Shown: piece after piece, positions 37,208-58,100 of the stretch | How positions within the stretch are numbered: the first letter of the stretch is position 1 | Layout of the letters: each line of letters begins with the position of its first letter | NCBI GenBank assembly: GCA_951406725.2 | Contig: OX597832.1 | Location: 23,870,001 to 23,934,000, forward strand | DNA length: 64,000 nt | Origin: Octopus vulgaris | Lineage: Eukaryota | Reading direction: 5' to 3' | Translations under genes and position numbers: made by a program | Notes under the pieces: generated by a model | Told to the model about the DNA's origin: nothing | The model's database searches: none | Seen by the model: only the letters and a program-made list of their open reading frames with translations

Positions 37208-38061
37208 GGATCTTTTCCTTTTGAACGGCAGACAATTTCTAGTTAACTAAACACTTTAAAACTTCGTATACTGGTAGAATGTGTCAAAATAAAACATCTT
37301 TTTTTCTCTTGGCTTTCTTGAGAAAATTGTAATTTGTTTGTTTAACCCTTTAGTGTTCAGATTATTCTATCAAACATAATGCTTATTGATTCCCATTGAT
37401 TTGAATTAATCATGCATTATCTCATATCTTCAAGATCTTGATGGTGTAATTACTTAATGTAGAATAACATTGTAGGGTAGGTGTAAGAGCCTGGATCTGA
37501 TCAGTCTGAACATAAAACAGATTAAATATTTTGGCCGGATATGGCCGGTTTAAATACTAAAGGGTTAACGTAGTTTAATTTTTCGAATTTTAACCAATCC
37601 TATGCTCTCTTTTGAGCTAAAATCATTTGCTGCGTCTAAAACTGAGACAACATCCTGTAACTAACCCTAAACCTCCCCCTAACCTTAAATTTTTTTTTCT
37701 TAATTGTTAAATTAATTTAATTGTTATGCATGTAAAAAAACTAAAGCAATGGAATTAAATTAATTTAACAATTAAGAAAAAAAAATTAGGGTTAGGGTTA
37801 GGGGGGAGGTTTAGGGTTAGTTACAGGATGTCTCAGCTTTAGACGCAGCAAATGATTTTAGTTGAATGGAGGTAATCGATTGGTTAAAATTGCCGAAATG
37901 CTCGGATTTTCAGACGAAATATCTTACAAACTATAGAATTTTCTCAATAAAACCAAGAGAAAATGATGTTTTATAAACACATTCTACCAGTATACGAAGT
38001 TTAAAAGTGTTCAGTTAACTAGAAATTGTGTTGACATCTGCCGTTCAAAAGGAAAAGATCC
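37208..38061. mobile_element. Foldback member of the GGATC-TIR family, 8-bp TSD cttatttc, telomere-like centre, nested TTAA MITE
   Basis: TSD at 37200-37207 and 38062-38069; long inverted arms. Confidence 0.85.
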
Positions 38062-39040: not shown

Positions 39041-39150
39041 ATGGACGAAAGTGACCATCTTTTGGAAAAATGTCGGAAAGCATATCGGGAGTGTTTTGAA
39101 AAAGAACCTCACCCATTGATAGTTCAAGCAATAAAGCACCAGTCAAATCA
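39041..39150 (+). CDS. LRRC34: LRRC34 coding exon 1 (MDESDHLLEKCRKAYRECFEKEPHPLIVQAIKHQSN, phase 2)
   Basis: Kozak-like ttcaccATGG; open frame to CA|gtaagt; phase matches exon 2. Confidence 0.8.
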
Positions 39151-39157
39151 GTAAGTG

Positions 39158-39193
<36 letters not shown>

Positions 39194-39540
39194 ATAATAA
39201 TAATAATAATAATAATAATAGTGAATTTGGTAGACGGAAACTGAAAGAAGCCTGTCGTATATATGTATATATATATATATGTATGTGTGTGTATATGTTT
39301 GTGTGTCTGTGTTTGTCCTCCTAGCATTGCTTGACAACCGATGCTGGTGTATTTACGCCCCCGTAACTTAGCGGTTCGGCAAAAGAGACCGATAGAATAA
39401 GTACTAGGCTTACAAAGAATAAGTCCCGGGGTCGATTTGCTCAACTAAAGGCGTTGCTCCAGCATGGCCGCGGTCAAATGACTGAAACAAGTAAAAGAGT
39501 AAAAAGAGAATAATAATAATGATAATAATAATAATAATAA

Positions 39541-40252
39541 TTTTCCTTCTTTCCTCCTCTTCCTCCAGGCCCCTCCCCTCTTTCATCTTCTTTCTTCCTA
39601 CTCCCTGTCTTCTTTTTTCTTCTTCACTGTCGTCTTCTCCTCCCCTTCTCCTTCTCCTCCTTTTCTTCCTTCTTCTTCTCCTCATTCTCATCCTTCTTCT
39701 TCACATTCTCCTTCATCTCATTCTTCTTCTTCTCCTCCTCCTCTTCCTCCTCCTACCCCTCCTCTTCATCCTTCTTCTTCTCCTCCTCCTCTTCTTCATC
39801 CTTCTCCTCTTCATCCCCATCCTTTTTCTTCTTCTCTTTCTCCCCTTCTCCTCTTCATCCTCCTCCTCCTCCTCTTCTTCATCCTTCTTCTCCTCCACCT
39901 CCTCCTCCTTCTCTTCATCCCCATCCTTCTCCTCCTCTTCTTCATCCTTCTTCTCCTCCACCTCCTCCTCCTTCTCTTCATCCTCATCCTTCTCCTCCTC
40001 ATCCTTCTCCTCCTCTTCTTCATCCTTCTTCTCCTTCCCTCCTACTCCTTCTCTCCTTCGTCCTCTTCTCCTTCTCCTCTTCATTCTCATCCTCATCCTT
40101 TTTCTTCTTCTCCTTCTCCCCTTCTTCCACCCATCCATCTTCTTCTTCTCCTCATTCGTCTTCTCTTTCTTCTCCCCTTCATTCTTCTCCTCCTTCTCCT
40201 TCTCCTTCTTCTTCTTCTTCTTCATCCTCACCCTTCTCCTCCACCTCCTTCC
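39541..40252. repeat. (CTT/CCT)n polypyrimidine tract in LRRC34 intron 1
   Basis: Read directly. Confidence 0.95.
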
Positions 40253-40645
40253 ATGTACGAGCATTTGTGTCTCCAGGTCTCTCCATGCATGCTAACCGTT
40301 GGCAAAAATCACTGTTCGTACCAAACAAAAACAGTGCCATTTATTTCCATTAAACCCTTTGTATTCAAACAATTAGAAGAGATATTACTTTGGTTGGGAA
40401 CCGGTTCGGGTTGGCAACAGGAAGAGCATCCACCCATAGAAAAACCTTTGCCAAAATATTTCCTGTCTGATCCATGTAAGCTTGGAAAAACGGACATTAA
40501 AACAATAACAATGAGGATGATAACAGCTGTTTAGCTTAATCCTTTCACTATATCGCAAACTTAATCCTATTGACCATATCAACATGATAATCCGTTAACT
40601 GCATTGAACAAATCAATCTAGAAACTAATCTTATGCATCTTAAAT

Positions 40646-41280
40646 CTAATTAATATTACCAAAGTGGCAGAGTCATTAGCAGATCTGGCAAAATGTTCAA
40701 TGGCATTCCGTCCATCTTTACATTCTGAGTTCAAACCTCGCCGAGGTCAAATTTTGCCTTTCGTCCCTTTTCAGGGTCAATGAAATCTAATTAATATTAC
40801 CAAAGTGGTAATTAATATTACCAAAGTGGCAGAGTCATTAGCAGATCTGGCAAAATGTTCAATGGCATTCTGTCCATCTTTACATTCTGAGTTCAAACCT
40901 CGCCGAGGTCAAATTTGCCTTTCGTCCCTTTTCAGGGTCAATGAAATCTAATTAATATTACCAAAGTGGTAATTAATATTACCAAAGTGGCAGAGTCATT
41001 AGCAGATCTGGCAAAATGTTCAATGGCATTCTGTCCATCTTTACATTCTGAGTTCAAACCTCGCCGAGGTCAAATTTTGCCTTTCGTCCCTTTTCAGGGT
41101 CAATGAAATCTAATTAATATTACCAAAGTGGTAATTAATATTACCAAAGTGGCAGAGTCATTAGCAGATCTGGCAAAATGTTCAGAGGCCTTCTGTCCAT
41201 CTTTATATTCTGAGTTCAAACCTCGCCGAGGGCGACATTTGCCTTTCGTCCTTTTCAGAGTCAATGAAATAAGTACCAGT
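40646..41280 (+). repeat. 4 x ~161-bp tandem repeat of a diverged family-B SINE 5' part
   Basis: Unit taattaatattaccaaagtggcagagtcattagc...ggtcaatgaaatc repeated with private variants. Confidence 0.9.
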
Positions 41281-42776
41281 TAAACACTGGGGTCGATGTA
41301 ATTGATTTACTCCCTCCACCCCACCCACCCCTGAAAATTACTGGCCTTGTGCTAAAATTTGAAACCAATATTACCAAAATGTAAAGTGCTGAGCTGGCAG
41401 AATGGTTAGCACGCCAAGCAAAATGCTTAGCGGCATTTCATCGGTCTTTATGTTCTGAGTTCAAATTCTGCCAAGGTCGACTACGTTTTTCATCCTTTTG
41501 GGATCGATAAAAGTACCAGTCAAACATTGGGGGGGTCAATGTGGTTGACTTACTCATTTCCTGAAATAGCTGGTATTGTGCCGAAATTTGATAACAATAT
41601 TCTTTTCACAAGGCCTAAAATTTTGGGAGAAGGGTGGGAGCCAGTCGATTAGATCGACCCCAATATACAACTGGTACTTAATTTATCAACCCTGAAAGTA
41701 TGAAAGGCAAAGTCGACCTCGGTGGAATTTAATTTGATAACAATATTACCAAAGTGTTAGTATGCCAGGCAAAATACTCAGCAGTATTTCGTCTGTCTTC
41801 CCATTCTGAGTTCACATTCCACCAAGGTGAACTTAGCCTTTCATCCTTTCAAGATCAACACTTGAGTCAATCTGTACAACTTAACCCGCTTCCCCCAAAA
41901 TTGCTGGCCTTGTGCCAAAACTTGAAACCAATATTAAAATATAGAAGGTGGCGAGCTGGCAGAAACGTTAGCACGCCAGGCGAAATGCTTAGCGGTATTT
42001 TGTCTGCTGCTACATTCTGAGTTCAAATTCCGCTGAGGTTGACTTTACCTTTCATCCTTTCAGGGTCAATTAATAAGTACCAGTTACACACTGGAGTCGA
42101 TGTAATCAACTTCATCCATTTGTCTGTCCTTGTTTGTCCTCTCTGTGTTTAGCCCCTTGTGGATAGTAAAGAAATAGGTATTTCGTCTGCCGCTACGTTC
42201 TGAGTTCAAATTCCGCCTAGATTGACTTTGCCTTTCATCCTTTTGGGGTCGATTAAATAAGTACCAGTTACACACTGGGGTCGATATAATCGACTTAATC
42301 CTTGTTTGTCCTCTCTGTGTTTAGCCCCTTGTAGGTAGTAAAGAAATAGGTATTTCGTCTGCTACTACGTTCTGAGTTCAAATTCCGCCGAGATTGACTT
42401 TGCCTTTCATCCTTTCGGGGTCGATAAAATAAGTACCAGTTACACACTGGGGTCGATATAATCGACTTAATCCTTGTTTGTCCTCTCTGTGTTTAGCCCC
42501 TTGTAGGTAGTAAAGAAATAGGTATTTCGTCTGCTACTACGTTCTGAGTTCAAATTCCGCCGAGATTGACTTTGCCTTTCATCCTTTCGGGGTCGATTAA
42601 ATAAGTACCAGTTACACACTGGGCTTGGGTCGATATAATCGACTTAATCTGTTTGTCTGTCCTTGTTTGTCTCCTCTGTGTTTAGCCCCTCGTGGGCAGT
42701 AAAAAAATAAGAAATAAGAAAACTTTAAACCGGTTTTACCAAAATGTGAACCAAACCATTGTCTTATGTCTTTCAG

Positions 42777-42948
42777 ATGCTTAAATGTTGCTGGAAATGT
42801 GACAACATTCTCTGGGGAACACCTTGGAGACAAAGACATGTTGGTTATGTACAAAATTCTCAAGGATCAATATCTATTTGTCAGTGTGAATTTAAGCTAC
42901 AATAATATCACTGATGAAGGATCACATAGCGTGGCTCAACTCATTAAG
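42777..42948 (+). CDS. LRRC34: LRRC34 exon 2 (CLNVAGNVTTFSGEHLGDKDMLVMYKILKDQYLFVSVNLSYNNITDEGSHSVAQLIK)
   Basis: tttcag acceptor, AAG|gtgatt donor; resembles recalled human LRRC34 LNIAGN...LDVGYN segment. Confidence 0.92.
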
Positions 42949-43417
42949 GTGATTCGTTGTTTCTTCCTTTCTTTTTTATTCCTTGATTCAACTTGCAAAT
43001 GTGTTATTTTGACTCTGTACTTTCCTTCAACCATATTTAACCCTTTAGTATTAAAACCGGCCATATCCAGCCATATGTGGCTACATCCAACCATATCTGG
43101 CCATATCCAGCCAAAATATATCTGTCTGTTTTAAGGTCAAAAGGGCTAAATATGGCCTCTCACGCTTAACCTACAATGTCGTTCTAAAGTATACAGGTGC
43201 AGATGTGGCTGTGTGGTAAGAAGCTTGCTTCCCGTCCACATGGTTCTGGGTTCAGTTTCACCATGTGGCACCTTGTGTAAGTGTCATATACCATAGTCTC
43301 AGGCCAACCAAAGCCTTGTGAGTGGATTTGGTAGACAGAAATTGAAAGAAGCCCGTTTTATATGTATGTATGTATGTATGTATGTGTGTGTGTATGTATG
43401 TATGTATGTACGTATGT

Positions 43418-43610
43418 ACAGAAACAAAAGATGAAGACAGGTGAGGGAACAATAAGCAGGTGTATTAGTTTCATGCTCGGGATGACTGGAAAAATCTTTG
43501 ATGTTTTGAACCTATGCTCTTTGTCAGAAAGGATTGAGAAGGTAAAAAAGGAGAGAGTTTTTTTAAAAATGGAGAGCGGAAAAAATTGTGTAGAAATATA
43601 TGGTTCAACA

Positions 43611-43652
<42 letters not shown>

Positions 43653-43812
43653 ATATATATATAAAATGTGACCACGTGTGTACCATTAGCGATTTTTTCC
43701 CCTCCGTCTTCCCTTCTCTGGATCTTTCCTTTTTCTATGTTTCTGACGAAGAGCTCCGCTCAAAACGTAAAACCCTCCTTCTTCCCTTCCTTCATGAGTG
43801 TCCAATAATACC
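43418..43812. mobile_element. Two related Penelope-like elements in opposite orientation around a (TA)n tract, with degenerate hammerhead cores
   Basis: Plus copy gtttCTGACGAaGAGCtccGCTCaAAACGTAaaac at 43739-43773; minus copy related to 8330-8520. Confidence 0.5.
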
Positions 43813-43907
43813 TAAAACTACTTGATTGCAAAGTAGACTTCTTAACCACTCGTCAATTTGTTTGTAATGTTTATTTTTCCCTAATTTCTTTACAAAATTT
43901 CTTCCAG

Positions 43908-43991
43908 TCTAGTTCTTCCTTGATATGTTTGAACCTTATGTGTAACGATATCGGTCCAAAAGGTGGAGAATTAATTGCTGCCGCTTTGCAG
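43908..43991 (+). CDS. LRRC34: LRRC34 exon 3 (SSSSLICLNLMCNDIGPKGGELIAAALQ)
   Basis: ttccag / CAG|gtaagt; 84 nt = one 28-aa RI-type LRR; near match to recalled LNLMFNDIGPEGGELIA. Confidence 0.95.
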
Positions 43992-44024
43992 GTAAGTAAA
44001 TCCTCCTCATTCCTTATTCTAAAG

Positions 44025-44368
44025 CAGTGGTTATCAACCAGGGTTCATATGCCCCCCCCCCCCCCCACACACACACACACACTGAGGGCCCATATAAGAT
44101 TTTTGGGGATCTACAAAACAAAATAGTAAATTGGGGATCTATAATAGTATTTTAAGGGCCCCTGAAAAACTTCTACTTTAGATGTGTTGCAAGAAACAGG
44201 TTCCTTTCTCTAACATTTTCCACAAGTTAATGCATGAAAAGCAAAATAAGAATTTTATTAGAAATTTCTATAAAACTAGTTTTTAAAAATTGAAAGGTTA
44301 TAGGGGTCCACCAGACTAAAGTAGAAATCCAAGGGATCCATGGATAAAAGAAGGGTTGAGAAGCCCTG
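44025..44368. mobile_element. hAT-like MITE
   Basis: CAG...CTG termini (cagtggttatcaacc / ggttgagaagccctg); near-perfect 8-bp TSD ttctaaag/ttccaaag. Confidence 0.7.
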
Positions 44369-44706
44369 TTCCAAAGAATTCCATTGTTTCTATATGCTTC
44401 TGTTTATTTATTTTTTCATCAACATCAGAGTGGAAAGCACTCGTCACAGCCACAGGTCCATGAGACGGTTGTGACGTGTAAACAGTTACTAGTAGGAACT
44501 AGAAAGAAAAGTATGAGCACATAATGCAAGCTGGATTTATAAAACGGAAGAGAAGAATAAAACACAATGCGCATGTCACATCTCGCTTTATCTCGCTGTC
44601 TTAATCATGCAGATGATACCATGTTTCTATATCTGCTAACACAGAGAAAAAATTTTTTTTACATGGAGCTTTGCTGTTTTCTTCGAGCTTCATGGACAGA
44701 TAGACA

Positions 44707-45423
44707 TTAACCCTTTCATTACTGTATTTATTTTGAGATGCTCTGTGTTTCTTTCAATTAATTTGAAATATAGCAAAGAATTTAGTAAAATAACTCAGTT
44801 ATCATTAAGCTAGTGTTACGAACATATATTGTGACTGAGGTAAGGTGGAAGATTTTAATTCAGAACTTGAGAAAACAAGACATTTGTACTACAGAGCCAG
44901 AACCGGTTTCAGCCGGGCTGGTAATGAAAGGGTTAAAAATATCATGGTGACTTTAACCATTTCGTTACATATTTCTGTTGAGATGCTCTGTGTTACTTTC
45001 AATTACTTTAAATATAACAAAGAATTTAGTAAAATAACTCAGTTATCATTCAGCTAGTGTTAGGAACATATATTGTGACTAAGGTTTGGTGGAAGATTTT
45101 AATTCAAAACTTATGAAAACAAGACATTTGTACTCGGAGCCAGAACCGGTTTCAGCCGGGTTGGTAACGAAAGGGTTAAAAATATCATGGTGACTTTAAC
45201 CCTTTTGTTACCATATTTCTGTTGAGATGTTCTGTGTTTCTTTCAATTACTTTAAATATAACAAAGAATTTAGTAAAATAACTTAGTTATCATTCAGCTA
45301 GTGTTAGAAACATAAATTGTGACAAAGGTTTGGTGGAAGATTTTAATTCAAAACTTATGAAAACAAAACATTTGTACTCAGAGCCAGAACCGGTTTAAGC
45401 TGGGTTGGTAACGAAAGGGTTAA
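44707..45423. repeat. 3-unit array of the same MITE, inverted relative to 30928-32607
   Basis: ttaacccttt...aaagggttaa units; spacer aaatatcatggtgact. Confidence 0.88.
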
Positions 45424-46618
45424 AACCATGTTAACAACCAGTGGCACATGGTGGTTGTTGTATTGGATGTGCTACCACACCCTATGCTACCAAATTTCAA
45501 GCAAGGATATAACAAAGTTTTCCATTAAGATTTGTGATTAAATTAACAAGTAAGGTTAATATTTATGATGAATTTGCCAGTTTTGATGGGTGTGCAGTGC
45601 ATACATAGCACACCCAGAATATACCCCCTCGTTAACTACAGCAATGTCTTAAAATTTATTACCAATTATTTTTTGAAATAATGAAGAATTTGGTAAAATA
45701 ACTTTGACATTATTAAGTTAGTGTTTAAGGCGGCGAGCTAACAGAATCGTTAGCACGCTGGGTGAAATGCTTAGCAGTATTTCGTCTGCCGCTACGTTCT
45801 AAGTTCATATTCCGCAAAGATCAACTTTGCCTTTCATTCTTTCAGGGTCAATTAAATAAGTACCAGTTATGCTCTTGGGTCGGGTCGCTGTAATCAACTT
45901 TATTCCTTCCCCCAATTTTTGAGGCCTTGTGCTTCCAGTAGAAAGAAGTATTAAGTTACTGTTTAATCAAAATCGATCAAAAATCAATGGAAAGTGCAGT
46001 TGTAATACCAGTGCTGGTGGCACGTAAAAGTACCATTTGAACATGGCCCTTGCCAGCACCGCCTTGACTGGCCTCTGTGCCGGTGACACGTAAAAAGCAC
46101 CAACCGATTGTGACCGTTGCCAGCCTTGCCTGGCACCTGTGCCAGTGACACGTAAAAAGCCTCCACTACACTCACAGAGTGGTTGGCGTTAGGAAGGGCA
46201 TCCAGCTGTAGAAACACTGCCAGATCAGACTGGAGCCTGGTGCAGCCTCCTGGCTTCCCAGACCTCAGTCGAACCGTCCAACCCATGCTAGCATGGAAAG
46301 CGGACATTAAACGATGATGATGATGATGTTTGGAACATAAATTTACATGGAATTTTCATGGAAGATTTTAATTAAGATCATTTGGAAACACTAATTTTAT
46401 AACAAAGAAACAGGAATAGTTTAATGTATTTGTTTAGTTAATACATTTATTAGTTGTGGAATTTCATCCAAGGAAATTCCTTTTAACTCTTTTGATATCA
46501 ACCTGCTCAAAACTGTCCCCCATTTCTCAGATACAAACCAGGACTGCCATGTTATGTTGGCAAATAGTCTTTACTTCAAAATAGAATTATTTATGTATTA
46601 TTTTCTATTTGCTTTCAG

Positions 46619-46747
46619 ACAAATAGTACTTTAGAGTCTCTAAACATGAATGGTAACAAGATTGGAAGAAACGGCGTGTTGATGTTTGCTCGGGCTCTTC
46701 AGTTCAATATTGGCTTAAAGGAATTGAATGTTGGCCATACCGACATG
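46619..46747 (+). CDS. LRRC34: LRRC34 exon 4 (TNSTLESLNMNGNKIGRNGVLMFARALQFNIGLKELNVGHTDM)
   Basis: tttcag / ATG|gtaagt; phase 0-0; LRR pattern; not in ORF track. Confidence 0.93.
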
Positions 46748-47832
46748 GTAAGTAATTCTTTCTAAATTTTGGCTCAAAGGCAGCAATTTTGATGGGAGGT
46801 GGGGATAGTCAATTAGATTGACCCCAGTGCATAACTGATACTTATTTTATCAAGCCTGAAAGGATGAAGGGCAAAGTCAGCTGCAGCAGCATTTGAACTC
46901 GTTAGCAATTTTGACGAGAGAGGGACAATCAATTACATTATTTTATGAACCCTGAAATGATGAAAGATAAAGTTGACTTTGGTGGCATTTGAACTTAGAA
47001 TGTAAAGAGCCAGAAGAAATGCCACTGTATTTTGTCCAATCTGCTAACAATTCTGCCAGGTTTACCATCTTTAACGATTTCAAATTTCAGCATAAAACCA
47101 ATAATTTTAGTGGGTGAGGGGATAAGACAATTACATCAACACCAGCACTCAATCAGTACTCATTTCATTGATCCCAAAAGGATTGAAAGTAGATTTCAGA
47201 TCCCGAATTAGGCAGTGTGTTGGAATTACAGGATCTAAGAAGAATATGAGATTTTTTTCTGCTGTGCATAAGTTGCATTACTTAGATCCATTAACATATG
47301 GCTTAGATCCAGCAATTCCAACACACTACTTAATTTGAGATCTGAAATTTTTAGCAGATGTAGACACATGGACAGGTTTTTTTTTTTTTAATCAAATTGG
47401 AAGGTACCACCCTTTCCAGATTGAGTTGAGACCTTGCAGACTTTGATATATTTTCTGTTGTTTTGTTCTAAACCAGTTTGTATTTAATGAGCTTTCTGCA
47501 ATCAGCTGGCAGAAATGTTAGCACGCTGGGCAAAATGCTTAGTGGTATTTCATCTATCTTTACGTTCTGAGTTCAAATTCTGCTGAGATTGACATTGCCT
47601 TTCATCCTTTCAGAGTTGACAAATTAAGTACCAGTGGTGTACTGGGGTTGATCTAATCGACTGCCTCCCCCTCCCCCAAAATTTCAGGCCTTGTGCCTAG
47701 AGCAGGAAAGATTATTCATAAATTATAAATAACATATTCTTATAAATTATAAATTTCTTATAATTTCTTCTCATTAATTTGTCCTTTGCTTTAATAAAAG
47801 AATTAATTAATTTGTCCTTTTGTCTTGCACAG

Positions 47833-47970
47833 AATATTGACAGTATGATAGCAATGGCTACAGTGCTTTGTTTCTCAAACTGTACATTACTTCGCATTAA
47901 TCTGAACAGACCTTTGTTGAAAAATATGGAAGAAGAAATTATTTCAGGGCATATAAGTCATCTCCTAAAG
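47833..47970 (+). CDS. LRRC34: LRRC34 exon 5 (NIDSMIAMATVLCFSNCTLLRINLNRPLLKNMEEEIISGHISHLLK)
   Basis: gcacag / AAG|gtaggt; INLNRP motif as recalled for LRRC34. Confidence 0.93.
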
Positions 47971-48357
47971 GTAGGTCAATATGCTCTCTATTAGTATATA
48001 CACACACATCATCATCATTTAACGTCCCTTTTCCACGCTAGCATTGGTCAGACGGTTCGACCAGGGTCTGGTAAGCCATGGAGGCTGCAACAGACTCCAG
48101 TCTGATTTCGCAGTGTTTCTACAGCTGGATACCCTTCCTAATGCCAACCACTCCGTGAGTGTAGTGGGTGCTTTTTACGTGCCACCGGCACAGGGGCCAG
48201 AGCGGGATGGTAAACGGCCATGATCAGTTGGTGCTTATACGTGTCACCGACACGGACGCCAGTCAGGCGGCGCTGGCATCTGCCACGTTCGGACGGTGCT
48301 TTTTATGTGTCACCGGCACAGGTGTCTTAACTACAATTTCACACATACATATATATG

Positions 48358-48592
48358 CATAAGGGCTGTACAGGCCCTATACAGAGAGGCCATTAGTAAA
48401 GTTAGGATTGGCAACGTGTATAGTGAAGAATTCCGGGTAGAAGTAGGGGTCCACCAAGGTTCAGCCCTCAGTCCCCTTTTATTCATCATAGTCCTCCAGG
48501 CAATAACAGAGGAATTCAAGATGGGTTGCCCCTGGGAGCTCCTCGTAGCAGAATCACTACTGGAACTAGAAAAGAAATTTCGGGTGTGGAAG
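48358..48592 (+). mobile_element. RTE-clade LINE reverse transcriptase fragment with the YADD motif deleted
   Basis: GVHQGSALSPLLFIIV...PWELL then directly VAES. Confidence 0.85.
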
Positions 48593-48765
48593 CTAATGCG
48601 GGATTCGAACTCACAACCTCACGATCGTAAGCTCGACGCTCTAACTACTGAGCCATGCGCCTTCAATGTGTGTGTCTATAGATTTAGGATTATTAGCTAG
48701 CAAGGTGTAAGTGATATAAAAAAAAAGTAAATAAATCTTTCTCCCTTTTTTTTTACTCAAACCAG

Positions 48766-48884
48766 ATGAATCCAGTTCTCATTGAATTACACCTGCAACA
48801 ACTCGGCATGGAGGATTACGGTGCAACGATAATTTCTGAAAGTCTAAGAAATAATACCATTCTTACACATTTGGATCTAAGTTG
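48766..48884 (+). CDS. LRRC34: LRRC34 exon 6 (MNPVLIELHLQQLGMEDYGATIISESLRNNTILTHLDLS, phase 2)
   Basis: pyrimidine tract + accag; TG|gtaatc; joins exon 7 to read LDLSCNRI. Confidence 0.92.
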
Positions 48885-48899
48885 GTAATCTGTTTTAAA

Positions 48900-49143
48900 T
48901 CATCCTCATCATCGTTATTATCATCATCATCATCACTATCACCAGCATCATCGTTATTATCATTATCATCATCATCATCATCATTGTCATCATCATCACC
49001 AACATCATCATCATCACCATCATTGTCATCATCATCATTGTCATCATCACCAACATCATCATCATCGTCATCATCATCACCATCATTGTCATCACCATCA
49101 TCATCATCATCAACATCACCAACATCATCATCATCATCATCAT
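48900..49143. repeat. (CAT)n microsatellite
   Basis: Read directly. Confidence 0.95.
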
Positions 49144-49587
49144 ATGCTGACCTTAGCATAATGGAGGTTGAGCTGCAGCGACTTCAGGTCTTCCTCAATT
49201 TGTTTTGACCATGTCTTTTTCCCTTCTTCTTCTTCTCCTTTTTCTTCTTCTTCTTCTTCTTCTACTGTTGCTGCTGCTGTTGTTGTTGTTGTTAAGCAAC
49301 AAGACGGGTAAGGGTGATTAGGTGATGGTCTAGGGCTTAGGGGCAGGAGACCCCAGACCTTGGAAAAAAAAACAACAACTTTGGTCGTCTTGTTGTAGTC
49401 GCGGGCTCTTCGTTGACGCCCGACACCACTGGGAGGTGACCCTCGAAGTCGCTGGAAATGGAGATCACCAGGTCCAAACTCTTGACCGGCTGCTGCTGCA
49501 GGAACACCAATGATGGAGAGCACTGGTAAACCTGGTCGTCTCAATGCATGATGAAGCTTCTGGGACCACTGACCTGGAACGGCCCCA

Positions 49588-49945
49588 ACTCCACCAGCTT
49601 AGCAAAGGTGGAGGTATTGTTTTTCAGTCATGCTTGTTTGTTTATTTGTCTGTGGAAAAGTTATCTCAAGAACCGCTGGATGAATTTGGATGAAACTTTC
49701 AGTGATGTTTGGCCTCGTGACTGGCATGAACTGATTAGATTTTGGGATCAATTGGGTACCAGACAAGGATTCTGGATTATTTTTCCTGTTTTTGAGAGTA
49801 GTTGGGTTCATTTTTAATATTCTCATTTGTGAGAGCAGTCGAGTTTATTTCAGATATTCTCATTTTAAAAATCATCTCTGCCTAATTGATGAGAGGATGT
49901 TGGTGTCACCTTGGTGGAGGTTTGAGCTCTCTAAATGCTCTTGTT
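49588..49945 (+). mobile_element. Helentron-associated non-autonomous element (HINE/DINE-like)
   Basis: ctccacc...ggtggagg near 5' end, ccttggtggagg and short hairpin at 3' end, (GTTT)-like tract. Confidence 0.5.
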
Positions 49946-50511
49946 GTTATTGGAAGGTGATCGAAATCAAATTCGATGACTGGCATCTGTGCTAGTGGAG
50001 CGCTAAGAGTACCATACGAGCGTGATTGTTGCCAGAGCAAAAAGCTGGCCTCCATCCCGATAGCATGTTAAAAACACCATTCGAGCGTGATCGTTACCTG
50101 CGTTGCCTTATTAGCACTTGTGCTGGTGGCATGTGAAAGACATTCGAGCAAGGTCATTGCCAGCTGCTGGACTGGCTCCTGTGCAGGTTGCACATAAAAA
50201 GCACCATTTGAGCATGACCGTTGCCAGTACTGCCTGACTGGCCCTCATGCCGGTGGCATGTAAAACCACCCACTACTCTCTTGGAGTCGTTGGCGTTAGG
50301 AAGGGCATCCAGTTGTAGAAACTCTGCCAGATCAGATTGGAGTCTGGTGCAGCCATCTGGTTTGCCAGACCTCAGTCAAATTGTCCAACCCATGCTAGCA
50401 TGGAAAGCGGATGTTTAAAAATTGATGATGATTACACAGAGATGTTTTCTTTCTTTTTTTTTGTGTGTATTTTATTAATTTCTTGTTGTTTTTGTCGGTG
50501 CTTTTTTTCAG

Positions 50512-50664
50512 TAACAGGATAGGCGAGGATGGAATGAATATGCTTGCTGATGCTATGGCTGTCAGTGGCACAACAGAGTTATTGAATATTGGGTATAACA
50601 GAATCGGTAACACAGGAGCCGTGTATTTGGCAGACCTGCTCAAAGTAAACACGTCTTTGAAGAC
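50512..50664 (+). CDS. LRRC34: LRRC34 exon 7 (NRIGEDGMNMLADAMAVSGTTELLNIGYNRIGNTGAVYLADLLKVNTSLK)
   Basis: ttttcag / AC|gtaagt; phase 2-2; two LRRs. Confidence 0.94.
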
Positions 50665-50809
50665 GTAAGTTCTTTCTTTCTTTCTTTTTGATGTTGTGGG
50701 ATGGAGTGATATAGTGGCGGTGTGGGGATGCAGCAACAGCTGGCGGGCGATGGGGGTGGAGCGGGGTGGAATGGAGTGTTTGTCGGGATGCAGGTCACAA
50801 GGGGGAGGG

Positions 50810-51410
50810 TACTGGAGGGTGAGGGTGGTGAGTGTTGGCATGATGGGTGGTGAAGGTGATGAGGCTAATGGGTGGTGGGGTGATGGGTGGTGAGGGTGAT
50901 GGATGGTGAGGGTGTTGGGTGGTGGAGGTCGTGGGTGTTGAGGGTGATGGGTGGTGAGGGTGAAGGATGGTGAGGGTGATGGATGGTGAGGGTGGTGAGG
51001 GTGAAGGATGGTGAGGGTGATAGAGGTGAGGGTGATGGATGGTGAGGGTGATGGGTGGTGAGGGTGATGGGTGGTGAGGGTGGTGGGTGGTGGTGGGTGA
51101 TGGGTGGTGAGGGTGATGGATGGTGAGGGTGATGGGTGGTGAGGGTGATGGGTAGTGATAGGTGATGGGTGGTGAAGGTGATGGGTGGTGATAGGTGATG
51201 GATGGTGAGGGTGATGGATGGTGAGGGTGATGGGTGGTGAGGGTGATGGATGGTGAGGGTGATGGGTGATGGGTGGTGAGGGTGGTGAGTGGTAATGGGT
51301 GGTGAGGGTGATGGGTGGTGAGGGTGGCGGGTGGTGATAGGTGATGGATGATGTGTGGTGATGGGTGATGAGAGTGATGGGTGGTGGGGTGATGGGTGGT
51401 GGGGTGATGA
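50810..51410. repeat. G/T-rich minisatellite (~16-bp ggtgagggtgatgggt) filling most of LRRC34 intron 7
   Basis: Read directly. Confidence 0.92.
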
Positions 51411-51457
51411 GTGCATGTGTGTGCATACGACTGTTTATATAATTTTCTTCTCTGTAG

Positions 51458-51587
51458 TTTGATTATAGTATCCAACAACATTGGAGTGAATGGAATTATA
51501 ACAATTATAGAGGTGTTGATAAACGTAAACAAGAGCCTGACATCTTTGTTCATATGGGGAAATGACGTGCAGCCCTCTGCTGGAGAA
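51458..51587 (+). CDS. LRRC34: LRRC34 exon 8 (LIIVSNNIGVNGIITIIEVLINVNKSLTSLFIWGNDVQPSAGE)
   Basis: ctgtag / GAA|gtaagt; VSNNI and IWGN motifs as recalled for LRRC34. Confidence 0.94.
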
Positions 51588-52485
51588 GTAAGTATGCATA
51601 CTAACATATATATACATACTTATATACACACATAATGAATGCATACAAGCATATATACATACATACATCCATACCAGAGGTGGACTGAGAGTATTAAGGA
51701 CTCTTGGGTATAACTGTAAAGTGTGGGCCCCTCAGAGCTCTGGGTCCTTGAGCAGTGTCCAATTGACCGACAGCTCAGTTCACCCCTGATCCATACATAC
51801 ATCCTTACACACATAAATACATACATACATGCACACATTTATATATTAAGCCTTACACACATGCATCCATATATAAACGCATACACGTATTCATATACAA
51901 AGTCTGAAATACATACATGCATACACATATTCATATATGGAAGCACTCCGTCGGTTACAACGACGAAGGTTCCGGTTGATCCGAATCAATGGAACAGCCT
52001 GCTCGTGAAATTAACGTGTAAGTGGCTGAGCACTCCACAGACACGTGTACCCTTAACGTAGTTCTCGGGGATATTCAGCGTGACACAGAGAGTGACAAGG
52101 CCGGCCCTTTGAAATACAGGTACAACAGAAACAGGAAGTAAGAGTGAGAGAAAGTTGTGGTGAAAGAGTACAGCAGGGATCACCACCATCCCCTGCCGGA
52201 GCCTCGTGGAGCTTTTAGGTGTTTTCGCTCAATAAACACTCACAACGCCCGGTCTGGGAATCGAAACCGTGATCCTATGACTGCAAGTTCGCTGCCCTAA
52301 CCACTGATCCATTGCGCCTCCACATTCATATATAAAGTTTTACATGCATGCATGCATACATAAATCCTTGCATATTTACATGCATGCATATGTAAATATT
52401 TAAATACAAACATGCATACATAGACACGTGCCTATGTATCTACGTTTGGAATACACATGCTTAAAAAATAATGAGACACTCACTA

Positions 52486-53170
52486 TCTATCTATCTATCC
52501 GCTCTGTCGAAGTCGACTCTCGGTTACCCATTGGATCAGTGTCCTCCAGTCAGTTCTATCCTGGGCCGCTTCTTTCAGATTGGCTATGTCCATTCTGGTA
52601 TCACTCTTGATGGTGTCAAGCCAGTGGGTTCTTGGTCAGCTTCTTCCTCTCTTGCCACTGACCATTCTGAGCATGATGTCCTTCTCCAGGGATTTTCTTC
52701 GCATAATATGATCGAAATATGCCTATCTACGCTTGGTGATCTTAGCTTCTAGCGACATTTTCGGCCTGATCTGCTTAAGAACTTCTCCATTGGTCGACAT
52801 CTTCCTCTCTTGCCACTGACCATTCCGTATATATATATATATATATATCCGCTCAGTCGAAGTCGACTCTCGGTTACTCGTTCGATCAGTGTCCTCCAGT
52901 CAGTTCTATCCTGGGCTGCTTCTTTCAGATTGGCTATGTCCATTCTGGTATCACTCTTGATGGTGTCAAGCCAGTGGGTTCTTGGTCGGCTTCTTCCTCT
53001 CTTGCCACTGACCATTCTGAGCATGATGTCCTTCTCCAGGGATTTTCTTCGCATAATATGACCAAAATATGCCAATCTACGCTTGGTGATCTTAGCTTCT
53101 AGCGACATTTTCGGCCTGATCTGCTTAAGAACTTCTTCATTGGTGAGCCTCGCTGTCCATGAGACACTCA
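52486..53170 (-). mobile_element. RTE (BovB-like) LINE 3' end, tandemly duplicated
   Basis: SWT...TNEEVL, RL.YFGHIMRR.SLEK.IM, GKRGR.RP...W.D.I, AQDR..WR; two near-identical copies. Confidence 0.9.
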
Positions 53171-53254
53171 AATGTGTATTAAATTCATATGCAAACCTAC
53201 AATGTGAGAGTAAGTTCACATATGCACTAACACAGACACACAAACACATACATA

Positions 53255-53921
53255 TATGAGGAATGGTGAAATAGTCCCTGGCTTTGAATGAAAGAAAATA
53301 CAGGAAGATCAGTTAACCCTTTAGCATTCAAACCGGCCATATCTGGCCAAAATATTTAACCTGTTTTATATTGAGACTGACCAGATCTCGCCTCTCACCT
53401 CAGCCCTACCATGTCATTCTAAAACTAAAAAATCACATCACTGAAATCTCTAAACTACAAGATAATGCATGATTAATTCAAACCATTTTAAATAAACAAA
53501 CATCACATTTGACAGAATAATCTGAACTCTAAAGGGTTAATTGTGATTTTATTCCACATATTTCCTTCTCAGATTCACACACTTATTGCAGCAATTCTTC
53601 AGTTTTTCTAAACCTGGAAAAGAAGTCAGAAATTTGGGCCTCAAACCAAACCTTTTGCGATACCCTTAATGCCAGTAATTTTTCTGCACCCCTTATATAT
53701 ATAGGAGTAGGGACTGAAAAGTTCCTGGCTTTGTATAAAAGAAAATACAGACGGATCAGTTAATTATGATTTTATTCAACATATTTCCCTCTCAGATTCA
53801 CACACTTATTGCAGCGGTCCTTCAGGTTTTCTAAGCCCTGTAAAAGAACTCGGTAAGTTCAGCCTCCAACCAGGTCTTTCATGAGACCCTTAAAGCCAGG
53901 AACTTTTCAGCACCCCCTCAT
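53255..53921. mobile_element. Two adjacent Tc1/mariner-like MITE copies, the first interrupted by a TTAA MITE
   Basis: TIR-like ctgaaaagttcctggcttt / aaagccaggaacttttcag, TA flanks; duplicated body. Confidence 0.6.
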
Positions 53922-54151
53922 ACATACGCAGACAATAACCTACTCATATATATCTACAAACCCCTAGAACAGTCTTGACTTAACAATAAAAAAAAGAACT
54001 AATTATTTTGTTATAACTGGCTCCAATAATTCTGCAAATGAAAAAAAAAAAAACTTAAATAAATCCCAAATAAGGAAAAATATATAATATCATAATTATA
54101 TTTGGTAATATTGTGAATAAAGGGTTCAACGTTGGTTCTATGTCAGTGTGT

Positions 54152-54440
54152 GTATATAAGAATTTTTTGCATAATGAGATAAAAAAAAACCAGAGCTGTG
54201 TAGCTATTAGAGCATTTATAAGATAGAAGGTCTTACGGCTGTTTCTAGGATATTTTTAATTATATCCCTTCATCAGAGACGGTGTGAGAGGATAGTTAAG
54301 TCATAGTTAATCCTCTCACACCGTCTCTGATGAAGGGATATAATTAATTATCCTAGAAACAGCTTCTATCTATAAATGCTCTAATAGCTACACAGCCTTG
54401 GGATTTTTATCTTATTACACAAAAATTCTTATATATATAT
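54152..54440. mobile_element. ~290-bp imperfect palindrome: inverted pair of Penelope-like terminal repeats
   Basis: Arms such as atatcccttcatcagagacggtgtgagagga / tcctctcacaccgtctctgatgaagggatat; hammerhead core in both arms; TA-rich flanks. Confidence 0.65.
54230..54280 (-). ncRNA. Minimal type I hammerhead ribozyme motif (Penelope-like)
   Basis: Minus strand reads gtct-CTGATGA-a-gggata-loop-tatcct-a-GAAAC-agcc-GTA-agac: stem I gtct/agac, stem II, 2-bp stem III, GUA cleavage triplet. Confidence 0.65.
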
Positions 54441-54589
54441 ATGTATGTATATATAAATATGGGCTGTAGTAGAAGATATTTGCCCAAGATGCCACACAGT
54501 AGAACTATGTGGTTGGGAAGCAACCTTCTTACCACACAGCCGTGCCTGCACCTGATATCTTATCTTATTTTTTTTCGTCTTTCTTTAAG

Positions 54590-54712
54590 GCAGTTCACAG
54601 ACTTTTGGAAGAAAAGCGTCTTTCAGAAGATTGCATTGATGTTAAACCGTATAACATTGAGGGGATTTATCACCTTGGTCGGCAATTTCTTTTTCGCCAG
54701 AAGCAGCAGTAA
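54590..54712 (+). CDS. LRRC34: LRRC34 terminal exon copy 9a, truncated duplicate (AVHRLLEEKRLSEDCIDVKPYNIEGIYHLGRQFLFRQKQQ*); 385-aa isoform if used
   Basis: Intact ttctttaag acceptor, phase 0; first 35 codons differ from 9b at two residues, then repeat-derived sequence and stop. Confidence 0.6.
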   Translation, partial: AVHRLLEEKRLSEDCIDVKPYNIEGIYHLGRQFLFRQKQQ

Positions 54713-54944
54713 GACCTTCTATCTATAAATGCTGTGATATCTACACAGCCTTGGTTTTATTTTATCTTATTTCACAAAAAATTCTTATATATATATATAT
54801 GGGCTGTAGTAGAAGACATTTGCCCGAGGTGCGACTCACGGTGGAACTGAACTCTGAACCACGTGGTTGGGAAGCAAGCTTCTTACCACACAGCCATGCT
54901 CTGCACCTGATACCTTTTTTTTTTTTTATTCGTCTTTCTTTAAG

Positions 54945-55121
54945 GCAGTTCACAGACTTTTGGAAGCAAAGCGTCTTTCAGAAGATTGCATTGATGTTAA
55001 ACCGTATAACATTGAGGGGATTTTTCACCTTGGTCGGCAATTTCTTTTTACTCCTCGCCAATTCGGTAGAGCACCAAGTTATGGAAACTGTCTAACAACA
55101 TCTGCCATTCTGAAGCAATAA
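54945..55121 (+). CDS. LRRC34: LRRC34 terminal exon copy 9b, full length (AVHRLLEAKRLSEDCIDVKPYNIEGIFHLGRQFLFTPRQFGRAPSYGNCLTTSAILKQ*); 403-aa isoform
   Basis: ttctttaag acceptor; DVKPY...G and PSYG correspond to recalled DVEPF...G and STYG; AATAAA at 55186-55191. Confidence 0.85.
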   Translation, partial: AVHRLLEAKRLSEDCIDVKPYNIEGIFHLGRQFLFTPRQFGRAPSYGNCLTTSAILKQ

Positions 55122-58100
55122 GCGAGAGAATATGAAGTTATGTAAAAACCGAAACTTTCAGCAAGTCTTTGTATTCTTAGAGAGAAATAAAAAATTTAAA
55201 TACATATCGTTTGTCATTTACTTGCTTCAGTGTACTGGACTGTGGCCATCCTGGGGCACCACCTTGAAGGGTTTTTGTCAAACAAATCGATCCCCAGGAC
55301 TTATTTTTAAAGTCCGGTACTTATGCCAAACTTTTAAGCTATGGGGCCGTAAACAAACCAATAGCAGTTATCAACCAATTGTGGGGACAAAGCATCAGAA
55401 TGCAGGACCTGGTGCCAGTCTTGCTTCTCCTCAGTTCAAAGATTTCAGTAAAGTTGACTCCAACTTCATGCAAGCACAAAAGCATGCTGGGAAAATACTG
55501 CTCCGCTAAATGGAAGCCTTTTTCTGTCATTGCGGTTTTCTGGCACAAAACAGAGAGAGATCCTTGATGTCATCATCATCATCATCATTTAACATCCGCT
55601 TTCCATGCTAGCATGGGTTGGACGATTTGACTGAGGACTGGCGAACCAGATGGCTGCACCAGACTTCAATCTGATCTGGCAGGGTTTCTACAGCTGGATG
55701 TCCTTCCTAACCCCAACCACTCCGAGAGTGCAGTGGGTTCTTTTTGCGTGCCACCGGCACGAGAGCCAGTGAGGCGGTACTGGCAACAGCCACGCCCAAA
55801 TGGTGCTTTTTATGTGCCACCTGCACAGGAGCCAGTCCAGCGGCACTGGCAACGACCTCGCTCGAATGTTTTCTCACGTGCCACCGGCACAAGTGCTAGT
55901 AAGGCGACGCAGGTAACGATCATGCTCGAATGGTGTTTTTAACGTGCCATCAGCTTGGAGGCCAGCTTTTTGCTCTGGCCCTGATCTCACTCATATGGTA
56001 CTCTTAGCACTCCACTGGCACGGATGCCAATCATCAAATTTTATTTCGCACCAAAGGAAACACATAGTAAATGATCCTCAAGCACTCATGCTAAGTCCTC
56101 AACTTATTCCATTTACTAAAAGGTTGACAAGGCACCTGCAGGCCTCAAGAGACACATTCTTATTTCTTTATTGCCCACGAGGGGCTAAACAAAGGGATTA
56201 AGTCAATTAGATCAACCCCAGTGCATAAATGGTACTTAATTTATGGACCCTGAAAGGATGAAAAGCAAAGTCAACCTCGGCGGAATTTGAACTCAGAACA
56301 TAATGGCAGACAAAATACCTATTTCTTACTACCGACAAGGGACTAAACACAGAGGGGACAAACAAGGACAAAGGGATTAAGTCAATTAGATCAACCCCAG
56401 TGCGTAACTGGTACTTAATTTATCAACCCCGAAAGGATGAAAAGCAAAGTCAACCTCGGCGGAATTTGAACTCAGAACCTAACGGCAGACAAAATATGGC
56501 TAAGCATTTTCGTCTGGCATGCTAACATTTCTGCCAGCTCACCACCTCAAGAGACACATTCGTGTCCATAGAACATGATTACTGCTTTATTTTCCTGAAC
56601 CCTCATTTGTCGTTCATGATGATGATGATCATCATATATATATATATCCAAAAGCTGTTCCACTTGATTTCTTGTTTTTGTTTATCAATAATTCTTGCAA
56701 AACTTTTTCATGAATTCCCATGTTTTTATCCAAAACGGAGATGATCACCAATTCCTCCAAGCCAACCACAGAGTAACGGAGGTTGATGTTTATAATCGTT
56801 TGACATCTGTCTCCCATGCTGACTTGGGTTGGATGGCTTGCGAGAAGCTGGCAAGCCAGAGAATCATTAGCACGCCAGGTGAAATGCGTAGCCGTATTTC
56901 GTCTGCCGTTACGTTCTGAGTTCAAATTCCGCCGAGGTCGACTTTGCTTTTCATCCTTTCGGGGTCGATAAATTAAGTACCAGTTACACACTGGGGTCTA
57001 TGTAATCGACTTAATCCATTTGTCTGTCCTTGTTTGTGTTTGGCCCCTTGTGGGTAGTAAAGAAATGGGCTTGAGAGGATCTGGCAAGCCAGAGAATCAC
57101 GCCATGCTCCATTTATCTGCTTCGGCACGATTTCATCAGCTGGATACCCTTCCTAACATCAACCACTTTACAGAGTGTACTGGGAGCTTTTGACATGACA
57201 CTGACAACAGCAGGGTCACTAAGTAACTTGTGAAACGCAGACCTTTCAGCTGGGAGAGGGACCGCATACATGATGCACGGAAGAAATTTTAAAAGGAATG
57301 AACAAATATCAAAACAATTTATTGGTTTATATTATTTTATTTTTCCATTTCCAGCATTCCACCAGGACATGGATGAGGTTCTGTATTTCTTTTATTCTTT
57401 TTTTTTTATAATACAAAATTTAAAAAACTGCATATTATATAACTGGAGAATGTATTTTTTATTTTTTTATTTTACAATCATGTCTTTCACCACAGCCAAT
57501 AACTCAACCAGGAGTGGAGCTGTTTTTAACCAATATTCAAAAAATAAAAGATCAGCTGTACAGAATATAAACGCTAATAAAGTTTTATTTTACATTTTTA
57601 CAAGGAAAACAAATATTAAAAAAAAAATGTGGAGAAGAAACATCTTTTCTTTCTTGTACGTATTTCAGTCACTGGACTGTGGCCATACTGGAGCACTGCC
57701 TTGAAGGGTGCAATCAAACGAATCAACCATTCAACAATTTTTTGTTTTTTTAAGTTTGGTATTTATTCTATCAAATTGCTTCTGCCAAATTGCTAAGTTA
57801 CAAGGACATAAACAAACCAACACTGGCTGTTAAATGATGGGGAGAAAAAAAAAACACACACACACACATATATATTTATACATCATGGGCTTCAACACGG
57901 CAGTAACTTCCGCCTGCCAAATTCAATCACAAAGCTCCGGTCGGCTCAGGGTTATAGTGGAAGACACCTACCCAAAGTGCCACGCAGTGGGACTGAACCC
58001 GAAACCATGTAGCTCAGAAGCAAGCTCCCTAACCACACAGCCATACCCGCGCCTATATATTTATACATGGGCTTCAACACAGTTTCTGTCTCCCAAATTC

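What the first reader, a model, noticed from the sequence alone, without database searches (positions are those of the whole stretch)
54152..54440. 290-bp hairpin of inverted hammerhead-bearing repeats 150 nt upstream of the last LRRC34 acceptor
Seen: long inverted arms with a ~15-nt loop. The minus arm has a complete type I core (CTGATGA, GAAA, GTA, stems I-III) but an A.A pair at the base of stem II; the plus arm lacks the cleavage site. Established: Penelope-like elements carry minimal hammerheads in terminal repeats that are often inverted, and coleoids edit dsRNA heavily via ADAR. Inference: the antisense copy may be cleavage-competent while the sense copy was inactivated, as expected if self-cleavage of LRRC34 pre-mRNA is selected against. 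The hairpin may be edited or affect 9a/9b choice.
Basis: partly seen in the sequence, partly recalled or inferred. Interest (0 to 1): 0.7.

Follow-up and report, generated by a model that had tools for sequence, protein, structure and literature searches.

The report
Dead ribozyme hairpin beside duplicated exon
The hairpin is a fold-back scrap of a very common repeat, likely a Penelope-type jumping gene, in an octopus intron; its two hammerhead ribozyme motifs are predicted not to cut, but a later duplication copied part of one arm together with the gene's last exon, so the other arm has two rival pairing partners that might steer which ending the gene uses.

Summary
The hairpin, the minus-arm hammerhead motif, the 9-nt loss in the plus arm and the LRRC34 host are real. 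The structure fits one ordinary fold-back insertion of a Penelope-like element: two head-to-head 3' ends of a high-copy family, a ~50-nt tail on one side only, an AT-rich target. No linked RT gene could be tested.

The cleavage/selection reading is not supported. Both cores are locked in a 38-bp perfect duplex (29 kcal/mol to free them). The 'intact' minus copy has lost the palindromic loop III that 86-99.8% of family depth keeps. Published minimal hammerheads need a dimer or the element's protein.

New here: a 355-bp tandem duplication copied the outer right arm with the last exon. The left arm can pair with the right arm (before 9a) or with the copy (before 9b, looping 9a out). The 9-nt loss opens the toehold that tips the computed balance. 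Both endings are annotated isoforms in Octopus sinensis. This is the docker/selector layout proposed by Ivanov and Pervouchine, built from transposon debris. An effect on splicing is untested (about 25%), and editing is untested.

The parts
54100..54152 (-). 3' extension ('tail', about 50 nt) of the left copy; absent from the right copy
   Evidence: 9 of 32 listed pieces, from all four runs, bridge 54153 with 31+ letters on each side and start at 54100-54116; summed depth in X1 rises from 780 (54038-54083) to 149,614 (54084-54129)
54153..54293 (-). left arm: 3' end of the element in antisense to LRRC34; on the pre-mRNA it is the candidate 'docker'
54230..54280 (-). minimal type I hammerhead motif, complete core, loop III palindrome broken at 54237
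   Evidence: family letter at 54237
54229..54237 (+). 9-nt bulge left unpaired by the plus-arm loss; predicted toehold for the downstream copy
   Evidence: duplex with 54706-54720 of -13.4 kcal/mol
54294..54309 (-). hairpin loop; element sequence belonging to the longer left copy; inversion junction at about 54309/54310
   Evidence: 2 of 32 listed pieces (X3 no. 18, X8 no. 30) match up to 54309 and then go on unlike; none of the 32 crosses it
54310..54435 (+). right arm: inverted, shorter copy ending in a (TA)n tract; core 54327-54333, GAAA 54356-54359, 9 nt lost after 54362; candidate 'selector' before 9a
54455..54550 (.). fragment of an unrelated, far commoner repeat (SINE-like; class recalled, not tested), duplicated at about 54800-54905
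   Evidence: summed depth 1.3-2.6 million in X1 and X2
54590..54712 (+). exon 9a coding part; its last four codons and its stop (54710-54712) come from the duplicated hammerhead remnant, the stop lying on the former cleavage site
   Evidence: 40 of 40 residues identical to the end of P0004 (O. sinensis isoform X1)
54699..54791 (+). duplicate of the outer right arm (start of tandem unit 2), with the GTA site and the 3' strand of stem I kept but no CTGATGA; candidate 'selector' before 9b
   Evidence: junction bridged by X2 piece 15 and X3 piece 20
54945..55121 (+). exon 9b, full C-terminal coding exon; only AATAAA in 54581-55400 is at 55186
   Evidence: 57 of 57 compared residues identical to P0002 (O. 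vulgaris)
51459..51587 (+). LRRC34 exon 8, donor at 51588, common to both endings

Best explanation
The hairpin is two head-to-head, 5'-truncated copies of one high-copy repeat end, likely laid down in a single Penelope-like insertion, and its hammerhead motifs are predicted to be inert passengers. Inferred order of events: (1) insertion in intron 8 of LRRC34, left copy with tail, right copy without; (2) tandem duplication of 355 bp from the right arm's GAAA to the middle of the last exon, giving 9a and 9b (junction shown in two runs); (3) decay, including the 9-nt loss in the right arm and the loop III change in the left arm, with the inner arms kept alike, probably by arm-to-arm conversion. 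In the pre-mRNA the left arm is made first and captures the right arm, so what the cell sees is a long duplex, a likely ADAR substrate, not a ribozyme. The 9a/9b choice most likely rests on competition between two near-identical acceptors, with the rival long-range pairing at most a modifier.
For: Architecture matches the published Penelope unit: adjacent inverted 5'-truncated copy, optional tail on one end, (TA)n or AT-rich target (PMC8557442 passages; PMC3846280 passages); paired minimal hammerheads on opposite strands are already described (PMC4209133). Family is high-copy: summed depth of tens to hundreds of thousands against 52.7 over the unique exon in X1 (not a copy number). Motif fits the Penelope minimal type: stem II 7 bp, stem I 4 bp, extra nucleotide after A9, short palindromic helix III in the family. 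Core locked: 28.7-29.3 kcal/mol on both strands for all eight stretches folded; even alone the minus arm forms helix III with probability 0.005 and the exact hammerhead fold with 0.0003. Loop III self-duplex -1.7 kcal/mol in this copy against -11.1 with the family letter, which holds 86, 99.8, 92 and 99.7% of laid depth at 54237. The duplicate keeps the 9 nt that the right arm lost, so the loss came later and once. Acceptors 9a and 9b share their last 17 nt and a CTGAT at -38.
Against: No RT or GIY-YIG ORF is linked to this repeat in anything I could fetch, so the class rests on architecture. The tail (about 50 nt) is longer than the 30-40 bp quoted. No target duplication can be read in the AT-rich flanks. 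The conserved G10.1-C11.1 pair of minimal hammerheads is not met. Equilibrium folding prefers the long-range state by 5.3-8.5 kcal/mol at 37 C and 15.6 at 18 C, which argues for a larger role in splicing than I allow. The inner arms are more alike (86 of 87) than the outer (31 of 38; Fisher p = 0.001, cut point chosen after seeing the alignment), which selection on pairing could also give.
Confidence: 0.6

Rival explanations
1. Same origin, but the structure now controls the choice of ending as a docker/selector switch: the left arm pairs first with the right arm (9a exposed); where the 9-nt bulge catches the downstream copy, strand exchange loops out 54247-54698 with the 9a acceptor, and 9b is used.
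For: Layout is that of Fig. 3a of PMC6071210 (Discussion read). Free fold of 54100-54960 pairs the outer left arm with 54699-54791 at probability near 1. Long-range minus local: -8.5, -5.3, -5.4 kcal/mol in three stretches; with 54229-54237 held unpaired it becomes +9.4 and +12.6 in the two stretches tried. Both endings are annotated isoforms in O. sinensis (P0004 = 9a, P0001 = 9b). In X3 (RNA is the tool's guess) a piece starts exactly at the acceptor with 437 unlike letters before it and stops where 9a and 9b diverge, and 9a and 9b branches follow at depth 3.8 and 3.5.
Against: The energy gap is 2-3% of the total, within model error, and a 450-nt loop is crudely modelled. The local hairpin is complete about 270 nt before the rival appears, and the first 35 nt of exchange are uphill (-40.9 against -50.5 kcal/mol). 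PMC6071210 itself notes the kinetic advantage of the near selector for a left docker and that energy and inclusion need not correlate. The arms show ordinary decay, with no compensatory change between left arm and duplicate. 9a has no AATAAA of its own, so these are two acceptors of one last exon, and use of both needs no structure. The X3 pieces are shallow and cannot tell which acceptor was spliced.
Confidence: 0.25
2. One reading: the antisense hammerhead can cleave and the sense one was removed by selection against cutting LRRC34 pre-mRNA.
For: The minus arm has all core nucleotides, with the canonical U4 that 61-88% of laid family depth lacks; the cleavage site is gone from the sense arm; in the minus-strand hairpin the GTA site sits in a bulge. 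Related retrozymes are reported as depleted from Xenopus introns (10.64898/2026.07.22.740005, passages).
Against: Cores locked by 29 kcal/mol on both strands; loop III palindrome broken in the minus copy; monomers inactive and dimers weak in PMC4209133; protein needed in PMC11167929; the sense core could not fold even before the loss because its complement is transcribed first; one deletion among three indels and eight substitutions between the arms is what decay gives.
Confidence: 0.05
3. The palindrome did not arise in one retrotransposition: it is either a MITE-like unit that moves as a palindrome, or a local fold-back duplication of one old copy.
For: Long terminal inverted arms ending in TA; both arms share letters that are minor in the family (54204, 54275), as a local copy would.
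Against: The arms end at different element positions (tail on one side only), the published Penelope pattern; none of 32 listed pieces crosses the junction and two stop exactly at it (weak: 111,496 pieces not shown, and palindromes break such assemblies); shared letters follow equally from one template or from conversion; the duplicate of the right arm has the family letter at the site matching 54204.
Confidence: 0.1

Closest known systems
Insertion unit of endonuclease-positive Penelope-like elements: pLTR, adjacent inverted 5'-truncated copy, optional tail (PMC3846280; PMC8557442; tail = two RT start sites, PMC11167929)
   Same: Head-to-head copies, tail on one copy only, AT-rich/(TA)n target, hammerhead about 80 nt inside the shorter 3' end.
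   Different: Stump only (about 335 bp), no ORF; tail about 50 nt; no readable target duplication.
Minimal type I hammerheads of metazoan Penelope-like elements (PMC4209133)
   Same: CUGANGA plus an extra nucleotide, stem II 7 bp, stem I 4 bp, 2-bp helix III with a 4-nt loop that is palindromic in the family, opposite-strand pairs.
   Different: An A stands at 11.1, so G10.1-C11.1 is not formed (one of 56 rows of Fig. S3 appears to have an extra A before GAAA too; columns were not kept in the text I saw); most laid family depth reads C at position 4; this copy's loop III is not palindromic.
Docker/selector competing pairings from partial duplication of a stem-loop (PMC6071210; Dscam exon 6; loop-out of a terminal exon in Drosophila Nmnat, PMC10790352 passages)
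   Same: One upstream arm, two downstream complements, each before a copy of the exon, made by one tandem duplication.
   Different: Arms are 90-nt transposon remnants, not short conserved motifs; two acceptors of a last exon, not internal exclusive exons; no conservation or functional test.
Non-LTR retrozymes (PMC7229834, listing only; 10.64898/2026.07.22.740005, first part and passages)
   Same: Type I hammerhead in a small non-coding animal repeat related to pLTRs.
   Different: Retrozymes are head-to-tail tandems with two complete ribozymes; here the copies are head-to-head and the only same-strand pair (54327 and 54699) has no complete motif.

Membership tests
Penelope-like element (EN+) insertion | Linked ORF with Penelope-type RT and GIY-YIG endonuclease | not testable with these tools
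   No genome held; six collection scans gave 0 loci
Penelope-like element (EN+) insertion | Adjacent inverted 5'-truncated copy, head to head | tested here: met
Penelope-like element (EN+) insertion | Optional 30-40 bp tail on one end only | tested here: met
   about 50 nt, left copy only; 9 of 32 listed pieces bridge it; longer than quoted
Penelope-like element (EN+) insertion | AT-rich or (TA)n target, with or without target duplication | tested here: met
   (TA)n after 54430, AT-rich before 54100; no duplication readable
Penelope-like element (EN+) insertion | Dispersed multi-copy family | tested here: met
   many unlike contigs laid on the arms in all four runs
Minimal type I hammerhead (PMC4209133) | Core CUGANGA, GAAA, NUH in type I order | tested here: met
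   minus arm; not met in the plus arm or in 54699-54791
Minimal type I hammerhead (PMC4209133) | Stem II of 7-8 bp, stem I of 4-5 bp, extra nucleotide between 9 and 10.1 | tested here: met
Minimal type I hammerhead (PMC4209133) | G10.1-C11.1 pair | tested here: not met
   A at 54246; no row for 54246 or 54269 among the 40 shown (32 hidden; lowest share shown about 37%), so probably the family state
Minimal type I hammerhead (PMC4209133) | Palindromic 15.2-16.2 and loop III for dimer formation | tested here: not met
   not in this copy; met by the family majority at 54237
Minimal type I hammerhead (PMC4209133) | Covariation in stems I and II across copies | not testable with these tools
   only per-site shares were returned, no whole copies
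Minimal type I hammerhead (PMC4209133) | Self-cleavage | not testable with these tools
   bench test; folding predicts none in context
Rfam hammerhead families | Score at a family's gathering threshold | tested here: not met
   no hammerhead family listed at E up to 10
Docker/selector system | One docker complementary to a selector before each exon copy, pairings mutually exclusive | tested here: met
Docker/selector system | Both exon variants used | tested here: inconclusive
   annotated isoforms P0004 and P0001 (their support not seen); shallow branches in X3
Docker/selector system | Conservation or compensatory change of the pairings across species | not testable with these tools
   no orthologous DNA of the hairpin could be fetched
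Docker/selector system | Disrupting and restoring the pairing changes exon choice | not testable with these tools
   bench test
Non-LTR retrozyme | Head-to-tail tandem with two complete hammerheads | tested here: not met

The most novel reading that the evidence does not exclude
A fold-back Penelope insertion plus one tandem duplication built a working docker/selector splicing switch from ribozyme debris: the dead hammerhead's cleavage site became both the stop codon of the new 9a ending and the toehold partner that lets the left arm loop 9a out, with the 9-nt loss setting the balance and temperature or ADAR editing able to tune it.
Probability: 0.2. Interest if true: 0.65.

Novelty: new member of a known kind. 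Interest (0 to 1): 0.32.

Why it matters
As a ribozyme finding it is ordinary: one more dead fold-back Penelope stump. Its value is as a small, young test case for the proposal that partial duplication of an intronic hairpin creates competing pairings that govern exon choice (PMC6071210). All parts lie within 900 nt, both endings are annotated, the gene is reported as strongly testis-biased in O. sinensis (PMC11202624, passages), and one 9-nt bulge is predicted to decide the balance. Penelope elements make such hairpins routinely, so a positive result would name a common source of raw material for these switches.

Tried and rejected
Whole-genome search: no genome held, so strand bias, junction diversity and a linked ORF were not tested. 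Exact-pattern scans of metagenome, viral and prokaryote contigs with two patterns: 0 loci in 6 of 6 scans. Rfam: no hammerhead family in three scans; the miRNA hits are far below gathering scores and reflect a generic hairpin. Runs: no RNA holder listed on record. Editing: not testable; at 80% likeness the laid contigs are mostly other family copies, contigs drop rare variants, no listed X3 piece is a near-identical match to the hairpin, and X3 piece 20 (54639-54820) shows 0 other letters at depth 3.8. X1 and X8 have no cover at 54590-54681; the tool says a hole proves nothing, so I draw nothing from it. Assembly artefact for 9a/9b: rejected, the junction is bridged in X2 and X3 (two studies, two organism codes) and P0004 carries its translation. 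A.A as damage: not favoured (see membership). Canonical U4 as a sign of kept function: rejected as evidence, since the family's commoner letter makes a CpG and other CpG sites decayed in these arms (54147, 54171), though a U4 subfamily is as likely. Earlier scan notes on this sequence or genome: none. The paper on dimer cleavage of Penelope hammerhead variants (Lunse et al. 2017, recalled) is not held and is not used.

Full report
Observation. The described sequence is there. The arms are 54153-54293 and 54310-54435 with a 16-nt loop and a perfect inner stem of 38 bp. The region folds at -182.3 kcal/mol, and 0 of 100 shuffles do as well. The minus arm carries a full type I core with a 4-bp stem I, a 7-bp stem II closed by A facing A, and a 2-bp helix III. 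A relaxed descriptor finds two motifs in the window; 6 of 500 Markov copies give any hit and none a hit with a 7-bp stem II. The plus arm lacks 9 nt that hold the cleavage site and the 3' strand of stem I. No Rfam hammerhead family matched at E up to 10; the descriptor of PMC4209133 describes such motifs better.

Host gene. The last exon found one longer protein, P0001, named LRRC34-like in Octopus sinensis. It maps to nine coding exons on the + strand, 39041 to 55121, plus a partial copy of the last exon at 54590. The cluster of P0001 has four members. P0004 (O. sinensis isoform X1) ends in the window's 9a translation, 40 of 40 residues. P0001 and P0002 (O. vulgaris) end in 9b, P0002 matching 57 of 57 compared residues. 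So the hairpin lies 150 nt before the first of two acceptors; the last is about 505 nt away. I did not see what supports those annotations. The only AATAAA in 54581-55400 is at 55186, so 9a and 9b are best read as two acceptors of one terminal exon. They differ in the protein's tail: 40 against 58 residues.

What the hairpin is. No genome is held and six collection scans found nothing, so family data come from contigs of 4 of 24 listed runs laid at 80% likeness. The tables are cut: 40 of 72 letter rows and 32 of 111,528 pieces are shown. The arms draw summed depths of tens to hundreds of thousands in X1, against 52.7 over the unique exon: a high-copy family, though depth is no copy number. Nine of the 32 pieces bridge 54153 and start at 54100-54116, so the left copy has about 50 nt more at its 3' end than the right copy, which ends in (TA)n. 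Two pieces match through the loop to 54309 and then go on unlike, so the loop is element sequence and the inversion point is near 54309/54310. Head-to-head truncated copies, a tail on one end and a (TA)n target are the published Penelope pattern (PMC8557442, 12 passages; PMC3846280, 10 passages; PMC11167929, passages and the second part of the main text). Minimal hammerheads in opposite-strand pairs 100-700 bp apart are in PMC4209133 (parts 1-2 of 4 of the text and parts 1-2 of 3 of the supplement). O. vulgaris has recently active Penelope families (PMC13282606, passages; its supplement was listed, not read, and may already name this family). The class rests on architecture, since no ORF could be tied to the repeat. 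Earlier notes of this scan describe like stumps in other genomes; they are unchecked and not used as support.

Does either ribozyme work? Probably not. Holding ten core nucleotides unpaired costs 28.7-29.3 kcal/mol in all four minus-strand and four plus-strand stretches folded. On either strand the complement of the core is transcribed first, so there is no early window. Alone, the minus arm forms stem II well (0.88-0.99) but stem I at 0.25 and helix III at 0.005, as expected for a motif that needs a dimer. The dimer needs a palindromic loop III: at 54237 the family letter that makes the palindrome holds 86, 99.8, 92 and 99.7% of laid depth, and this copy's self-duplex is -1.7 against -11.1 kcal/mol. 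So the copy called intact is also damaged. The A.A pair is probably not damage: neither position is among the 40 rows shown, whose lowest share is about 37%. PMC4209133 found no cleavage by a single minimal motif and low cleavage by dimers; PMC11167929 found none without the element's protein. Against this, the minus copy does have every core nucleotide, with the canonical U4 that most laid depth lacks, and no assay was run.

Selection on the sense copy. The 355-bp duplicate of the right arm (54699-54791) still has the 9 nt, so the loss happened once, after the duplication, in a core that was already locked. The arms differ by three indels in the inner part and eight substitutions in all. One loss among these does not call for selection. 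The genome-wide strand test could not be run. A preprint reports retrozymes depleted from Xenopus introns (first part and passages), so selection against active ribozymes in introns is plausible in general; the passages seen give no strand test.

The competing pairing. The duplication gave the left arm two partners. In a free fold of 54100-54960 its outer part pairs with 54699-54791, not with the right arm, enclosing the 9a acceptor and exon. The long-range state leads by 8.5, 5.3 and 5.4 kcal/mol in three stretches at 37 C, and by 15.6 at 18 C in the one tried. The lead comes from the bulge that the 9-nt loss opened: held unpaired, the local hairpin wins by 9.4 and 12.6. The partner of that bulge is the old cleavage site, which also supplies the stop codon of 9a. 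This is the layout that PMC6071210 proposes for the birth of docker/selector systems (first part and Discussion read); loop-out of a terminal exon has a precedent in Nmnat (PMC10790352, passages). The junction is real: X2 piece 15 and X3 piece 20 bridge it. In X3, a probable RNA run, one piece begins exactly at the acceptor after 437 unlike letters and ends where 9a and 9b diverge, and both branches follow at depth 3.8 and 3.5; this is a hint only. Against a function: the gap is within model error, the local hairpin forms first, the first 35 nt of exchange are uphill by about 10 kcal/mol, no compensatory change links left arm and duplicate, and two near-identical acceptors can share use with no structure. 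I put control by this pairing at about 25%.

Editing. A 120-pair duplex with 80 paired adenosines in a coleoid intron is a likely ADAR substrate; in squid, widely edited sites lie mostly in introns and 3' UTRs and overlap repeats (PMC9068888, passages). That is the expected fate of such repeats, and nothing here tests it.

Novelty. The insertion is a new member of a known kind. Searches for hammerhead with Penelope and Octopus listed no paper whose title or abstract start deals with an octopus hammerhead; a search joining transposable elements with selector sequences and tandem exon duplication found 0 papers; LRRC34 with octopus found two, one reporting testis-biased expression. The library lacks most subscription journals, so this is no proof of absence. 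Verdict: observation confirmed, ribozyme reading not supported, with a testable side finding on splicing; interest 0.32.

Noticed in passing
window 17295-17330 (+): A second, unrelated minimal hammerhead motif (extra A after the core, G10.1-C11.1, 4-bp stems, no helix III; 15.2-16.2 unpaired), about 75 nt before a (TA)n tract: probably the end of another Penelope-like family.
   Followed up: partly
window 54275 and 54328: 61-88% of laid family depth at 54275 reads the letter that makes core position 4 a C. U4C is described as lowering activity in vitro (PMC3088659, passage). A large family with this core would be unusual; the shares are depth-weighted and contigs laid on the other arm are not counted.
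   Followed up: partly
window 54194-54293 against 54310-54396: Inner arms match at 86 of 87 aligned sites, outer at 31 of 38, and both arms share a letter at 54204 that the duplicate and 88-100% of family depth lack: a sign of arm-to-arm conversion after the duplication.
   Followed up: partly
window 54527-54733, run X2 piece 15: This piece has 9b-type letters before and in the exon but the 9a junction after it, at depth 242: there may be more than two 355-bp units in that organism.
   Followed up: no
window 52484-53133: A second tandem duplication in the same intron, 300 nt at 96%, spacing 350, close to the 355 of the 9a/9b unit; its reading frame looks like a retroelement fragment by eye but has no Pfam match.
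   Followed up: no
window 37626-37852: Another long hairpin of about 225 nt in front of the LRRC34 start, AT-rich centre; only sub-threshold miRNA matches; possibly a MITE.
   Followed up: no
window 417-1713: GC-rich tandem array that is open in several frames on both strands.
   Followed up: no
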